A stretch of 63,701 nt of DNA, filler included, from Bigelowiella natans CCMP2755 (lineage: Eukaryota; Protista; Cercozoa), in NCBI GenBank assembly GCA_000320545.1. It is 5 parts of 5 records of this genome, joined end to end, with 100 filler letters (N's around TTAATTAATTAA, not from the genome) between each part and the next. Parts side by side here need not be neighbours in the genome. Positions count along the whole stretch, not along the records: positions 1 to 31,461 come from ADNK01002060.1; positions 31,562 to 53,250 come from ADNK01002226.1; positions 53,351 to 59,126 come from ADNK01003551.1; 2 more parts are not named here. One strand, given 5' to 3'. The first letter of the stretch is position 1; each line of letters starts with the position of its first letter. The position numbers and the translations under genes are program-made. The notes beneath the pieces are model-generated. The model was not told the origin of the DNA. It did not search any database and saw only the letters and a list, made by a program, of their open reading frames with translations. Below are positions 11,740-57,475 of this stretch, one piece after another.

Positions 11740-12480
11740 TGCCAGCGCGTGCAGGCAGAAACCAGTCATGGAACGTCAGTCCATCGCAAGATGCTTGATG
11801 TCTTGCATTTGATTCACAGAGACCATCTCCTGATGCTCTCTCGTGGCCAATTGCCATTCCTGTGAACGTCTTGTTGCATTTTGGAAATGCAGTGCCATCA
11901 TCATTGTTCATTGTGAGTGAGCACGTGTCTTCTGCAATTGCACTCTGTGCCCTAGATGCATGCAGAGCATTGCAACAACTTCGTCTGCAATCTCGCACAG
12001 TTCATTTTGCTAATTTCACCAGCCAATGCGAGCTTGCACATCGACTCAGTGTCATCATCGCATTTGCACAAGCTTGCAGATTGAGAGCATCAACAGCTGC
12101 ATGCTGAGGCTGTGAACTTTGGTTGGCTTGTGCGTGTGCACATTGCAGTCAGCATGAGTCAGCCTAGCATCACAGACGACATGCAATGTCATGTGCACAA
12201 CATGCATGCTCTGCACTGCACGCGATGCATTGTCGATGTGGCCCGGAGGTGGTTTGTGATTCAACTCAGCTAGTCAGGATGAGGCTGCGCTGCATGCAAG
12301 CAGATTGCACCCTTGTGCAATCTGGCAATCTGGCCTCGCGTTTTAGACTCAGCGGCGCATCATATTTGAGGAACTACGTTTACAAGGTTTGCTCAAAATC
12401 CTTGCTAGCTCTCGCGCGTTAATGCAATGCAATGCAATGCTCTTGACAATTCGAACGAATCTTCTGTCTAATTTTGGCGA
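11740..12480. repeat. TpA-depleted island (hypermutated repeat remnant)
   Basis: Hand count of 5 TA in 11761-12360 (3 CTAG, 1 CTAA, 1 TTAG). TG/CA excess and (AATGC)4 at 12421. Confidence 0.7.
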
Positions 12481-14514
12481 CAATCAGAACAAATTTTAGT
12501 GACACTTCGCCCTACATTTTGTTGAAATGAGAAACCTCCTTGCATCATCTGCTTGTGCTGTCTGGGCCTTCAGACTCATCTTCACGAGAAAGCATCTGTT
12601 GTCACACGAACAGAGGATGCTTAGTGCGTTATCATCAATAGGATTATGATCGGAAACTATCGACTATCATTCGACTACGTGGTTATGTATAAATATGCAA
12701 TATTCATAGACAATATTCATATGTCGAATGTATATTACATACATCTTTTCTTCGATATTCTTCTTATTTTTATACTCTTACAAAATCTTCCATGACTGCT
12801 TCTCGGAGATTCTCCAGTTGTTCCTCTTGCTCAGGTGATAGGTTCTATATCATGCACATGCACACACACTCACACTCACAATCACATATGTACACACACA
12901 CACACACACACACACACATATATATATATATATATATATATATATATATGTGTGTGTGTGTGTGTGTATGGCCGCGTCGTAAACAATCATTTACCTCTAG
13001 CGTTGTCGTATTTGCAGGCTTCTCTTTATTCGCGTGGTGGCCTTTCCCGTCATTAGATTCTGTTGGGAAAAACGAAGCAATGAGATGAAAAAGGAATCAG
13101 AAGGAAAGCAATCATCCTTTTTCTGCTTCAAAGTTTCCTCTGCATCGGAGGGGTGTCGTGATAATAGCTACCACTACTAAATAATAGCTACTACTACTAC
13201 TACTACTACAACTACTACCACTACTTTTTCCGTTGAAAGTCTTCCTAACGGCTAACACATTCATTGACTACTGGCTATAGCAACCATCCATACCGGGAGA
13301 GTTGATGCTACTGCTGCCTTTAATAAGCTCTTGCAAATCTAGAAATGAAAGAAAACATTCATGGTCTATGAGGAGGCGAAGTCTCTTCCTTTTTATTTAT
13401 TTTTTTCAAATGGAAAATGGTTAGCGAAGGAAGCTGCTCTCAAGAATCGGCAATGGAGGCCATGCAAGGTTGGTGCTGTTTGTGTTGTTCGTCGTTATTA
13501 TTAAGCTACAATTCATCCATTGCTCAAAGAATCCTTTCAGATGAACGGGCTCAGCGTCCTGAACATGCAAGGGAACGGTGAACGGGAATCACGTTAGATT
13601 GATAGAAATCAAGCACGATCGTGCCATAATAGATGCGCTATCGATTGATTTGACAACTGATATTTTCAATGCATCGCAAGGCTGTAACATTTACTTTGTG
13701 GCGCTTCCATTCTTCTCGGACATATTCATTCCCAAACCTTGGCAAAGGCACAGTAATAAGCGATAACATGGATGGGGAGAGAAAAGGTCGCACAATAAAA
13801 ACAATAAAAAACAATCAAGCAGATGTGGGCTTCGCTAGCATGACGCTTCACGCAGCGTCCATTTCCTCCCAGTATCTGACACTTTTGCTTTATTATTCAA
13901 TCTTCTTTTTTGGCTCCTACTCTCTTCTGATTTTATGTTACGTTGCCATCATTGGTGGGAGGACTCTTTTGTGCGTGATCAATATTGCTCTGTAAAGCTT
14001 CAATGCGAAAGCTCTCTTCGAAACCACCGGTGACCCATATACGGCACACACACACACACACACACACACACACACATGAGAGAGAGAGAGAGAGAGAGAG
14101 AGAGAGAGAGAGCGATTATGTAAAATTTCGAGATTATTGCATGCATCCTATCATAATATCTGCTTTCTTCGACGGCCATAGCAGTGGGTAACCGAACAGT
14201 GGCGGAGTGAAAGATACCAGTGCTAATTTATACTAGTGAATGTAAGAGACCGTGTGTACTCTCTCCTTTGCTTAAATCCTTATTCATTACGCAATGTGTA
14301 TATATTTGCTCGTTCTATTTTAAAATCAGCTGAGGCAAAAAAGGACCTGATCCAACTTCATCTCCTTCGCTTCTTTGCGTGTGGACTGAGCGAATTATGG
14401 TGCGAGATGTTATTGATTCCAACCGGGCGTGCTAGCAATGTCAACCCAACCTTGTTGTCTGTGGAATAGAAGACGCTTAGGTCACTTGTCCTATTCCCCA
14501 CAACCAGAGCTATT

Positions 14515-16417
14515 GAAGACGTCGGGGCACTGCCCATCCCTTTGCATTTGTGCACATTGACGACCCGAGCAGCAGCCATGAGCCTCCTGAACCCCAGCGT
14601 CGAAAACGGCATGACGAGTGCGAGCAGTCAGCGCTGTTTTTCTGGCTATTTCTGTCTCCTCCTTCTCCTTCTGTTTCTTCCCCTCTGCTGCTCCAGGAAG
14701 TTGACACGGAAGATCTCTTTGGTTGTGTGGCGGAGAGCGCTTGCCGTTTGCCCCTCCTCCCTTTTGAATTCCGGTCTTTCTAGGCCAGGAGAAGTCGTCG
14801 CAGAGCAGTGCGTTGCGACCTTTTCTCGCAGTCGATTGCACGCCATTCAAGGGAAAATTCCTGTTTTCTTGGTTGTCGTCCTGCAACAACGGCATGGAAT
14901 GCGATGTGTGTTCAGGAAAAATCATCTGAGTTTTTGACCTGTCGTTGGACCAAAATGGCACTGGTTTTTGCGTTCGTCCCAAAATGCATCTGTGTGGGAA
15001 GGGATGCAAAGCCTGGCTGAAGGTTTCTCAAAGCACGCCATGCAAACCGAGAAAACCCAAAAGCTTCCCAGACAACAGGTTCGGACATGCGCATTTGATG
15101 TTGGACGTTGTTGTGATGATCCAGAACCAACCTGTGGTGACGAAGATGGTTGACTCTCCATAACTCACTGGGTGGAAGGCGGCCCTGAAAAGATCAAGGA
15201 AACCAAGAGCTAGCTGAAGGTTTCAAACACTGGGCGGAGGCCAGCTCTCTGCACGCGTTGTTGAAGCCTGTGTCGAAATTGGTGGCACACCTCGGCAGCG
15301 ACGAGGTTCGCACACCTTGGACAAGTCCCGTGCATCGTGCTCTCATCGACTCCGTCCTTGAAACGGAAAAAAACAAAGTCCAATGACCCTTTCGACGCTG
15401 GAACAAAAACTCACGTTCACGAAATTGCTGTGGACAGGTGGATGGGGCGAGGACGGAGGGTTGGACTCTGCCGATTTGCACACACAGTGTCCTTCGCTTT
15501 GAACTTTTTGACGTTGCCAATTGTGAGTGACCCAACACCCGGTCGCCTTCGCCTGCAGCACGCCAGGCACGAGAAACTCAGTGCGTGAACACGGCAAGCT
15601 GGCAAGCAATTGGGACCAAGCTAGCAAGCCAGCAAGAGAACTTCAAACCAAAGGTGATCGTGGTGCTCCAGTTGCAATGGACGGCGTTCTGTGCGAACTC
15701 ACACCCACTCTGCGCAAACAGTGCGGAAGTGACGTGACGTGCTGGCGTGGTGCAGGTTGCCGATGTCAGTCAAGTCCAACCCAAAGTGGATTCCTCGTTG
15801 AGGCGACTGCGGATGACAAGTTTTTGCAAAGCATGGGTGTCATTGGCTTCCACGGGGCAACTGCTGGAATTGGCCAAAGTGACAAAACGAACAGGTGCCA
15901 TTGAGCCAACGTCGTCACAGGGTTTGACGGAGTTGTGGCCCTGCATTGAACAATTTGCACACAAGAACAATTGAAAAGTTGTTTTTTCTGGACTTTTTCG
16001 CTTTTCTGCGAGTGTCAGACACAGTTGACTTGTCCTCGTGCTCAGCACACTTGGCTCTGACCTTCTCTGGTTCTTCTGAACGTTGGAACTTGGCGCCACA
16101 TGCAAGCAGCTGCACGTGTGCACTTTGTTCACACGTTGCAAACCACGACAAGAGAGCACGTTTGCATCATTGATCTGGACTCCTCGCCCACAAAGGGCAC
16201 GTCCTGGTGCGCAAACGCAAACACATGACATTGCAAAGTTGCGACGCACATTGGTTTCCTTGCTGTGCAGTCGTTCTAGTTCCACGGTGATGCATGAGCT
16301 TTTGTTTCAATGAGCATGGGGGCCATGCATGAGCAAGTGATGAATCCCTCGCAAATTCGGGAAAATCGTTGAGTTTCAGCTGTCACCCAAAAACTTTGAT
16401 TTGAAAATTTTGACAGC
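14515..16417. mobile_element. ~1.9-kb almost TpA-free element; probable degenerate transposon or duplicated gene, family unassigned
   Basis: 6 TA in ~1900 bp. Many overlapping spurious ORFs nearly devoid of Tyr. No microsatellite introns. Sharp right boundary at the GPCR stop codon. Confidence 0.6.
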
Positions 16418-56461: not shown

Positions 56462-56629
56462 AGTGTTGGGGGGAGGGGGGGGGGGGGGGGTCCGATGGGG
56501 GAACATGTCTTCTTTTTAAAACTAAGTGATGATAGACATGTAATACAATGTATATATATATATATATATATATATATATATGTATATAATGAATAGTACT
56601 ACTGTGTCTATTATAGTGATGCAAGTGAA

Positions 56630-57475
56630 CATTGAGCGCAGCTGCATGCACATGAGCGAGTTGGGCTGCAAGCCAAAAACACGTTTTGACAATGCACGTT
56701 ATGGCTCGAGATAGAAAAAAAAAAAAAAATCGAATGTGCTAGCTAGCTAGGCTGACTCAAAATTTCGCGCAGCTTTCTCATTTTCGTCATGCCTGGTGCT
56801 CCCGGCTGTCCGCCATCGCAAGATGATCATGTGCTCATCAATGAGAGCGTGGTGTTTTCAATTAACTTTTTCATGTCGATAATGCGTGCATGCGAGGCCG
56901 CACTAGATCAGCTAGATCGCACCGATGTTGTCAAAGCTTTTCTGCTAGTCTGTGTTTTTTTGCTCTCCGCTAGAACGAATGCTTGCGCAATTCGCTTAGA
57001 TGTATCATCTAGCTAGTACGTAGTTGTGGCAAGAGTGATGTGGAATCATTGCAATGGATTGACAAAACATTCCATCATCGCATATGCAAGTCTAGAAGTA
57101 TTGATTGAACAGGCCCGGGTTCATGCAAGTGATGACCATTCGATTGCATGATGAAGGATGCTGCGTGTTTTTGCAGCGCAACGAAAATCGACAGAACATC
57201 ATGCTCCCACCCACATTGTGGCATGGCATGAGCACAGCACTCTGCAGTGCGGAGGCAATTCTGACTTGCTAGCATGGCACTTTTCTTGTTCATGTCGCCT
57301 GCATGCGCATGCACATCTAGACATGCTAGCATGGCAGCTGCTGCCGAAGCTGGGTCAGAAGGCACGCAGGCTCATGATGCTCGCACGATGAAGGCAGGAT
57401 GCGTGAGTTCTTTGGTTGTCGGACGTGCATGCTACATGCGGCAGCTGCATGCAGCCGGCGCAGCTAGCTAGTACA
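56630..57475. repeat. TpA-depleted, CTAG-rich island
   Basis: 57121-57420 has only 3 TA, all in CTAG. GCATGC excess. Confidence 0.65.

What the first reader, a model, noticed from the sequence alone, without database searches (positions are those of the whole stretch)
11740..57475. Context rule: surviving TpA is concentrated in CTAG
Seen: 4 of 6 surviving TAs in 14521-16420 are CTAG, as are 3 of 5 in 11761-12360 (the others CTAA, TTAG), 7 of 12 in 43561-44340 and 3 of 3 in 57121-57420. Inference: an A followed by G is resistant, so only the palindrome CTAG is protected on both strands. This implies a target of TAH>TGH acting on both DNA strands. ADAR prefers UAG, the opposite 3' preference, which argues against editing of an RNA intermediate.
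Basis: partly seen in the sequence, partly recalled or inferred. Interest (0 to 1): 0.82.

Follow-up and report, generated by a model that had tools for sequence, protein, structure and literature searches.

The report
Algal TA mutator spares CTAG
In repeat relics of a marine alga, likely Bigelowiella natans, almost every TA letter pair is missing while CTAG mostly remains, likely the fingerprint of an already reported host DNA mutator that disfavours A followed by G and, in one heavily hit copy, likely also struck AT pairs, clues that would help identify its unknown enzyme.

Summary
The counts are exact (4/6, 3/5, 7/12, 3/3). In islands defined without using flanks, CTAG is 16 of 35 TAs against 186 of 3157 outside (p=5e-11). 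The DNA is chlorarachniophyte. TpA>TpG/CpA DNA hypermutation is already reported in Bigelowiella natans (Mettrop et al. 2026 preprint), whose main text never mentions flanks. This scan noted CTAG sparing before, on other pieces of this genome. New here: (1) survival fits two independent strand events with a graded rule, base after the A T≥C>A>>G. (2) Survival alone cannot tell 'G after' from 'C before'. Product counts favour 'G after' over 'C before' but tie with a both-flanks model. (3) A second genomic copy shows CTAG is slowed, not immune: 2 of 3 lost, against 18 of 18 other TAs. (4) In that pair 31 of 53 A>G changes are off-TpA, 22 at ApT, a second context not in the preprint's main text. 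A known system with a useful, partly supported enzyme fingerprint.

The parts
11740..12344 (.). Island 1, TpA-depleted repeat relic (looser HMM call to 12622). Starts just behind the 3' end of an expressed host transcript.
   Evidence: HMM; TA O/E 0.22, TG 1.71, CA 1.91, AT 1.15 over 11740-12622; RNA depth 17-25 over 11400-11761 with poly-A loose ends at 11718, 0-2.5 beyond
11868..11914 (.). Short motif shared with many other genomic places, inside island 1
   Evidence: 10-11 contigs per run carry another letter at 11895 and run on unlike at both sides; 2 metagenome contigs match the motif at 83-87%
14513..16419 (.). Island 2, the most heavily hit relic, depleted of TpA and also of ApT; essentially no RNA coverage; element type not identified
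   Evidence: TA O/E 0.07, AT 0.63 over 14513-16465; RNA depth under 0.8; other contigs end their match at 16421; no Pfam, PHROG or credible phmmer hit
14990..15856 (.). Stretch with a second, less mutated genomic copy (1029-base contig, 84 other letters), used to read the direction and context of changes
   Evidence: same contig in 3 of 3 DNA runs laid; 71 of the 84 differences listed; analysed
43542..44337 (.). Island 3, MITE-like element bounded by 17-18 bp inverted repeats (43542-43559 and 44321-44337); the HMM island edge 43538 coincides with the left repeat
   Evidence: nested inverted pair 43596-43612/44274-44290
43001..43537 (.). Partly depleted flank of island 3 with an absolute CTAG excess (13 observed, 2.1 expected), partly in short repeated units
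   Evidence: interval picked by eye; direct repeats 43392-43498
56620..57700 (.).
   Evidence: TA O/E 0.46, TG 1.51, CA 1.53 (interval picked by eye); short direct repeats 57213-57336
39908..40903 (-). Host protein kinase ORF (CaMK-like) used to place the DNA among chlorarachniophytes; not part of the mutated islands
   Evidence: nearest named hits Lotharella oceanica 85%, Amorphochlora 88% (partial), Bigelowiella 75%, Plasmodiophora 60%

Best explanation
The islands have lost TpA on both strands with CTAG lost most slowly, likely because the host mutator already reported in Bigelowiella natans, likely a TadA/ADAT-type adenine deaminase, attacks each DNA strand separately and is predicted to read the base after the A. 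Steps: (1, shown) repeat relics lose TA and gain TG and CA equally. (2, shown by model fit) Survival is additive over the two strands, with per-strand loads T 2.0, C 1.8, A 1.0, G 0.09. (3, inferred, favoured by product counts) The base that matters is the +1 base, so CTAG, whose A is followed by G on both strands, is the last to go; it is slowed, not immune. (4, shown in one copy pair; same enzyme inferred) Under very heavy load, A not preceded by T is also hit, with the same +1 order (T 22/90, C 7/79, A 2/112, G 0/78), which depletes ApT. (5, inferred from the preprint and from deaminase chemistry) A is deaminated to inosine in transiently single-stranded DNA of silent foreign or repeated sequence and is copied as G. 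How targets are chosen is not addressed here.
For: Island statistics. The additive two-strand model has the best AIC: 47.4 graded, 48.8 binary, against 52.4 multiplicative, 54.5 strand-asymmetric, 55.3 CTAG-only shield and 86.9 uniform. Products: the +1 model beats the -2 model by 10.9 log units (CTAH/DTAG contexts) and 17.6 (all non-palindromic contexts); island 1 has 37 +1-type against 14 -2-type products, p=0.003. Copy pair: 55 of 71 listed differences are G/C in the window and A/T in the other copy, 4 are the reverse; strands 26:29; 18 of 18 clean non-CTAG TA sites are changed, against 2 of 3 CTAG. At non-TA adenines the +1 base matters (p=2e-8; p=1e-6 without CA contexts, so CpG decay does not explain it) and the -2 base shows no clear trend (VAT: A 7/21, C 5/26, G 4/21, T 6/22). 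Polarity: ApT O/E 0.56 in the window, 1.02 in the other copy; CpG 0.84 vs 0.79. Preprint 10.64898/2026.01.13.699255 reports 230 de novo A>G/T>C changes, all at TpA, in chromosomal DNA. TadA-derived editors give genome-wide TA-context A>G (PMC13225742), and one variant has YAY>YAR (PMC12528748).
Against: Product counts do not separate the +1 model from a symmetric both-flanks model (-17.3 vs -17.0 for CTAH/DTAG). Islands 2 and 3 give no product signal (58:61, 25:23). In the copy pair, 2 of 3 single-flank sites changed on the TAG side (ATAG and GTAG; p=0.03 if that side takes 10% of hits), a fourth site is ambiguous, and one clean CTAC site in L001/L002 did the same. The survival fit rests on 35 surviving TAs and uses host background as a stand-in for unknown ancestors. 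The ApT result comes from one pair, 13 of 84 differences were not listed, and islands 1 and 3 are not ApT-depleted. The preprint saw no off-TpA transition in 230 (upper bound 1.3%), so the same enzyme must have acted at a very high cumulative load. No enzyme was tested. The only natural ADAT2 shown to deaminate A in DNA prefers GAA, not TA (PMC10354150). Absolute CTAG excess in partly mutated flanks is not explained.
Confidence: 0.55

Rival explanations
1. Both flanks act together. The mutator senses the double-stranded tetramer, or reads both the -2 and +1 bases, so RTAY sites are best and YTAR, above all CTAG, worst; either strand is then hit about equally.
For: The symmetric product model ties with the +1 model on CTAH/DTAG contexts and fits islands 2 and 3 better. 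Strand choice at single-flank sites in the copy pair is mixed. In L001/L002, RTAY sites differ in 6 of 13 and YTAR in 0 of 9 (p=0.046; organism unknown). CTAG is described as a structurally polymorphic tetramer (PMC6511876, start of abstract only).
Against: The multiplicative survival model is 5 AIC units worse than the additive one. Island 1 products are clearly one-sided (37:14). Over all non-palindromic contexts the +1 model is 2.4 log units better. No -2 effect is seen at non-TA adenines.
Confidence: 0.2
2. The same sequence rule, but the lesion is on thymine (an oxidised or otherwise modified T that mispairs, T>C): T followed by A is the target, and the base before it sets the rate (A≥G>T>>C).
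For: Sequence data are symmetric and cannot tell A>G from T>C. Thymine-modifying systems exist in other protists (recalled, no call).
Against: No call shows a modified thymine in this lineage. The TA preference has a close analogue in TadA-type deaminases, and the preprint names an ADAT2 candidate.
Confidence: 0.13
3. CTAG is shielded as a palindrome (methylation or a bound protein), or is simply abundant in the ancestral elements as repeated motifs; there is no per-strand rule.
For: CTAG exceeds mononucleotide expectation 4-6 fold in five of seven hand-picked partly mutated stretches, and TA loss alone cannot create CTAG. Several CTAGs sit in repeated units.
Against: CTAH and DTAG are also protected relative to DTAH (p=0.005). 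The CTAG-only model is 6.5-8 AIC units worse. In island 2 CTAG is below expectation (5 vs 7.6), and 2 of 3 were lost.
Confidence: 0.07
4. A C two bases before the A protects (target DTA>DTG). TAG would then be a normal target, and the reader's argument against ADAR would fall.
For: Gives identical survivor counts. 2 of 3 single-flank sites in the copy pair and one in L001/L002 changed on the TAG side. TTAG/CTAA contexts lean this way.
Against: 10.9-19.4 log units worse than the +1 model when the three islands are pooled, 3.4-4.3 when AT-containing contexts are dropped. One CTAA>CTGA change is seen directly. No -2 C avoidance at non-TA adenines.
Confidence: 0.05

Closest known systems
TpA hypermutation of integrated NCLDV and virophage DNA in Bigelowiella natans (Mettrop et al., bioRxiv 10.64898/2026.01.13.699255; parts 1-3 of 5 read: abstract to conclusion, plus a term search of the main text; methods and supplements not seen)
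   Same: A>G and T>C at TpA on both DNA strands, TpA loss with TpG/CpA gain, silent foreign or repeated DNA; clusters of such windows genome-wide, including transposon-related genes.
   Different: The main text has 0 hits for CTAG, TAG, flanking, context or trinucleotide and states that changes occur only at TpA. Here a flank gradient is measured and a second ApT context appears. Targets here are small repeat relics, none shown to be viral.
TadA-derived DNA adenine deaminases (ABE8e, ABE3.1, ABE8e-YA; PMC13225742, PMC12528748, bioRxiv 10.1101/2024.11.19.623682, PMC12296453; passages only)
   Same: A>G on DNA with a 5' T preference; YAY>YAR in ABE8e-YA; native TadA motif UACG.
   Different: Engineered enzymes. 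TadA-8e on RNA shows no clear downstream preference. The secondary context here is VAT whatever the 5' base (CAT 10/38, GAT 7/26, AAT 5/26), not YA. Resemblance only.
ADAR hyper-editing, including ADAR on DNA in DNA/RNA hybrids (PMC5389660, passages)
   Same: A>G with 5' T/U the best neighbour.
   Different: ADAR1d edits TAG best (94%; AAG 81%, AAT 43%, GAC 19%), whereas TAG is the slowest TA here and xAG changed in 0 of 78.
Amphioxus BjADAT2/3 DNA deamination (PMC10354150, passages)
   Same: A natural ADAT2 able to deaminate A in DNA.
   Different: Prefers GAA for A and TCG for C, and also makes C>T.
Fungal repeat-induced point mutation (RIP; as described in the preprint, and recalled)
   Same: Context-specific transition mutagenesis that erodes repeats on both strands.
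   Different: RIP is C>T and creates TpA; this process removes TpA and raises GC.

Membership tests
B. natans TpA hypermutation (Mettrop 2026) | Host is Bigelowiella natans | tested here: inconclusive
   Chlorarachniophyte by kinase homologues; the species name comes from earlier unchecked notes on this genome and from the matching signature
B. natans TpA hypermutation (Mettrop 2026) | A>G/T>C transitions that remove TpA on both strands | tested here: met
   55 vs 4 directional differences, strands 26:29, 20 of 21 clean TA sites changed
B. natans TpA hypermutation (Mettrop 2026) | Changes occur only at TpA | tested here: not met
   31 of 53 gap-free A>G differences in the island 2 copy pair are off-TpA, 22 at ApT. 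This is a long-term record, not de novo events
B. natans TpA hypermutation (Mettrop 2026) | Targets are of viral or other foreign or mobile origin | tested here: inconclusive
   Repeats elsewhere in the genome and terminal inverted repeats are shown; no protein family is recognised
B. natans TpA hypermutation (Mettrop 2026) | Ongoing rate about 1000 times background | not testable with these tools
ADAR hyper-editing | 3' G is the preferred neighbour (UAG/TAG best) | tested here: not met
   TAG/CTA has the highest survival (0.47 vs 0.035-0.14); xAG 0 of 78; ADAR values
ADAR hyper-editing | Changes on one (RNA sense) strand | tested here: not met
   26:29 in one copy; TG:CA 384:349
TadA/ADAT-type DNA adenine deaminase | 5' T preference with 3' pyrimidine over purine | tested here: met
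   fitted loads T 2.0, C 1.8, A 1.0, G 0.09; assignment to the +1 position is favoured, not proven
TadA/ADAT-type DNA adenine deaminase | An HxE-PCxxC enzyme makes deoxyinosine in the targets | not testable with these tools
   No genome held; the preprint's candidate was not examined here
Fungal RIP | C>T transitions raising TpA | tested here: not met
   Opposite direction

The most novel reading that the evidence does not exclude
Chlorarachniophytes have a natural DNA adenine deaminase of the TadA/ADAT kind that works as a reverse RIP on transposons as well as viruses. The ratio of CTAG, TpA and ApT loss then grades how long each element has been under attack, and the code is a ready assay for finding a natural A-to-G DNA editor.
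Probability: 0.3. Interest if true: 0.72.

Novelty: already known. Interest (0 to 1): 0.42.

Why it matters
The process is published but its enzyme is unknown. A flank code is the cheapest handle on it: candidate deaminases expressed in E. coli or yeast should give TAT/TAC over TAA over TAG, with a weak ApT tail, and this separates them from ADAR (TAG best) and BjADAT2 (GAA). Natural enzymes that deaminate adenine in DNA are rare, so the identity matters for genome-defence biology and for base editing. The ApT tail would also revise the statement that the process is limited to TpA. The flank rule itself refines a known system and has been noted by this scan before.

Tried and rejected
No whole genome is held, so the genome-wide tetramer count could not be run. 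Six-frame Pfam scan of four islands with X at stops: 23 of 24 frames had no hit, one had a sub-threshold YthB hit. PHROGs: 0 of 6 frames. phmmer of one minus-strand stretch of island 2 gave a single hit, a 28-residue match repeated in a plant NLR, judged spurious. Window self-comparison found no second copy of any of the four islands; it found a short repeat family at 19599, 23564, 24224, 39510 and 60764 with too few clean columns to use. An island 2 pattern found 0 metagenome contigs. The island 1 motif found 0 viral contigs and 2 metagenome contigs. Those two (L001, L002; organism unknown) are about 85% alike and differ in both directions, with TA adenines only about twice as often changed (13/136 vs 38/844), so they are weak evidence and not used for the main claim. 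No RNA holder was on record in the run search. CTAG density does not correlate with local TA density over 126 bins (rho -0.12, p=0.17), as expected for survival rather than creation. CpG decay in the other copy was rejected as the source of ApT differences (AAT 5/26 and GAT 7/26 have no CpG; CpG O/E equal). 58 rows of other letters were not shown, among them the differences of three further short related contigs, so these were not analysed. Two word searches and one place search of earlier findings returned nothing. Paper searches for the flank rule and for ApT methylation in this alga listed no paper reporting it; only listings were seen for those hits.
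Full report
Observation. All four counts are exact. Pooled, 17 of 26 surviving TAs are CTAG, or 14 of 23 after removing those in a tandem and a direct repeat, against about 6-7% expected. In those islands CTAG is 16 of 35 TAs against 186 of 3157 outside (p=5e-11). Measured as TA/(TA+TG+CA) relative to background, survival is 0.05 for DTAH, 0.14 DTAG, 0.22 CTAH and 0.87 CTAG. Single-flank sites survive better than DTAH (p=0.005), CTAH equals DTAG (p=0.55), and TG and CA are balanced (384:349).

Source and prior knowledge. A kinase ORF at 39908-40903 has chlorarachniophyte nearest relatives. 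A paper search found Mettrop et al. (bioRxiv 10.64898/2026.01.13.699255); I read parts 1-3 of 5, abstract to conclusion. In mutation-accumulation lines of Bigelowiella natans, 230 of 231 mutations in two integrated viral regions are A>G or T>C, all at TpA. The authors also report genome-wide clusters of TpA-poor, TpG/CpA-rich windows and propose an ADAT2 homologue. The main text has no hit for CTAG, TAG, flanking, context or trinucleotide; supplements were not seen and may bear on this. Earlier notes of this scan record the process and CTAG sparing on other pieces of this genome. That the window is B. natans is inferred.

What the islands are. They are repeat relics. Island 1 starts just behind a poly-A site at 11718 of an expressed transcript and holds a motif shared by many contigs. 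Island 2 has a second genomic copy and almost no RNA coverage in about 6% of one RNA run. Island 3 is bounded by 17-18 bp inverted repeats at 43542 and 44337, where the TA-poor zone begins. No protein family was recognised, so a viral origin is not shown.

Survival model. Poisson fits to the 16 tetramers favour additive effects of the two strands: AIC 47.4 (graded: T 2.0, C 1.8, A 1.0, G 0.09) and 48.8 (binary), against 52.4 (multiplicative), 54.5 (asymmetric), 55.3 (CTAG-only shield) and 86.9 (uniform). The fit rests on 35 survivors and uses host DNA as the ancestral baseline.

Which flank? By symmetry, a C two bases before the A leaves the same survivors; only the products differ (CTGH and DCAG versus CCAH and DTGG). 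Over the three islands the +1 model beats the -2 model by 10.9 log units on CTAH/DTAG contexts, by 3.4 without AT-containing contexts and by 17.6 on all non-palindromic contexts. It ties with an even split on CTAH/DTAG contexts (-17.3 vs -17.0). The signal comes from island 1 (37:14, p=0.003); islands 2 and 3 are even (58:61, 25:23).

Direct changes. A 1029-base contig, present in 3 of 3 DNA runs laid, aligns to 14990-15856 with 84 other letters; 71 were listed. Of these, 55 are G/C in the window and A/T in the other copy, 4 are the reverse and 12 are transversions; the two strands give 26 and 29. The other copy has TA O/E 0.40, so it is itself partly depleted. Of 24 TA sites in that copy, 3 were dropped as lying at gaps. 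Of the remaining 21, all 18 non-CTAG sites are changed in the window, and 2 of 3 CTAG. CTAG is therefore slow, not immune. Against the strict rule: at single-flank sites ATAG and GTAG changed on the TAG side and CTAA on the TAA side, with a fourth site ambiguous; p=0.03 if the TAG side should take 10% of hits. The surviving ATAA at 15161 lies in a 5-base stretch absent from the other copy, perhaps a later insertion.

A second context. Of 53 gap-free A/G differences, only 22 have T before the A. The other 31 are VAT 22, GAC 5, CAC 2, CAA 1 and GAA 1. Per site, non-TA adenines changed in 22/90 with T after, 7/79 with C, 2/112 with A and 0/78 with G, the same order as the TA survival loads; the -2 base shows no clear trend. 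CpG decay cannot explain AAT and GAT (12/52 vs 1/128 for xAR, p=1e-6). ApT O/E is 0.56 in the window and 1.02 in the other copy, so the window copy is the derived one. Islands 1 and 3 keep ApT (1.15, 1.05). To fit the preprint's 0 of 230 off-TpA events (upper bound 1.3%), the same enzyme needs a very high cumulative load in island 2; a second or older activity is possible. This rests on one pair. I found no report of it (earlier notes).

Mechanism. Shown: two-strand, directional A/T>G/C change in repeats, additive flank effects, CTAG slowest, ApT loss in one copy. Inferred: adenine rather than thymine chemistry; +1 as the base read; one enzyme for both contexts; a TadA/ADAT fold; single-stranded substrate. 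ADAR1d on DNA/RNA hybrids edits TAG best (PMC5389660, passages), the opposite order. TadA-derived editors give TA-context A>G genome-wide (PMC13225742, passages) and prefer YA (bioRxiv 10.1101/2024.11.19.623682, passages), with YAY>YAR in one variant (PMC12528748, passages). TadA-8e on RNA has no clear downstream preference (PMC12296453, passages), and BjADAT2 prefers GAA (PMC10354150, passages). The likeness is a lead, not membership.

Unexplained. In seven partly mutated stretches that I picked by eye for CTAG richness, CTAG exceeds mononucleotide expectation 4-6 fold in four (13/2.1, 9/1.8, 11/2.3, 4/0.8), about 3-3.6 fold in two (15/4.2, 10/3.1) and 1.5 fold in one (7/4.6); GCTAGC is the commonest hexamer form (38 of 204). 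TA>TG/CA cannot create CTAG. Repeated element motifs and slippage account for some; selection by eye inflates the rest.

Verdict. The system is already known. The flank rule is an unpublished refinement as far as reach, was seen earlier by this scan, and is here partly supported and extended by an ApT context. Interest 0.42.

Noticed in passing
window 14990-15856: ApT depletion (O/E 0.56) and 22 VAT>VGT-type differences from a second copy: a second mutational context beyond TpA.
   Followed up: yes
window 43001-43537, 56620-57700, 60200-61000, 39150-39640, 19580-20200: Partly mutated stretches where CTAG is 3-6 times above mononucleotide expectation, often as GCTAGC or GCTA tandems; not explained by TA loss (intervals picked by eye).
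   Followed up: partly
window 19599-19650, 23564-23684, 24224-24284, 39510-39631, 60764-60821: Five diverged copies (75-85%) of a short AT-rich repeat, each beside TG/CA-rich DNA; possibly the ends of a MITE family.
   Followed up: no
L002 1-552: C-terminal part of a TnpB/Fanzor-like protein (Pfam Cas12f1-like_TNB, E 9e-17) upstream of the repeat that shares the island 1 motif; organism unknown.
   Followed up: no
window 24807-25337 (-): ORF with an NAD:arginine ADP-ribosyltransferase domain (PF01129, E 5e-15).
   Followed up: no
window 47559-47952: 197-base perfect-spacing inverted repeat, 93% complementary, with a 140-base core 99% identical.
   Followed up: no
window 39908-40903 (-): The kinase ORF is one uninterrupted 331-codon frame in an otherwise intron-rich region; possibly a retrocopy.
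   Followed up: no
window 20968-22086 (-), 22819-23355 (+), 55036-56461 (+), 17097-17651 (-): Ordinary host genes: urea transporter, cyclophilin, aquaporin (MIP) and a weak cAMP-receptor-like match.
   Followed up: no
window 31462-31561, 53251-53350, 59127-59226, 61981-62080: Four 100-base assembly gaps with a 12-base linker in the middle; artefacts, masked in the counts.
   Followed up: yes
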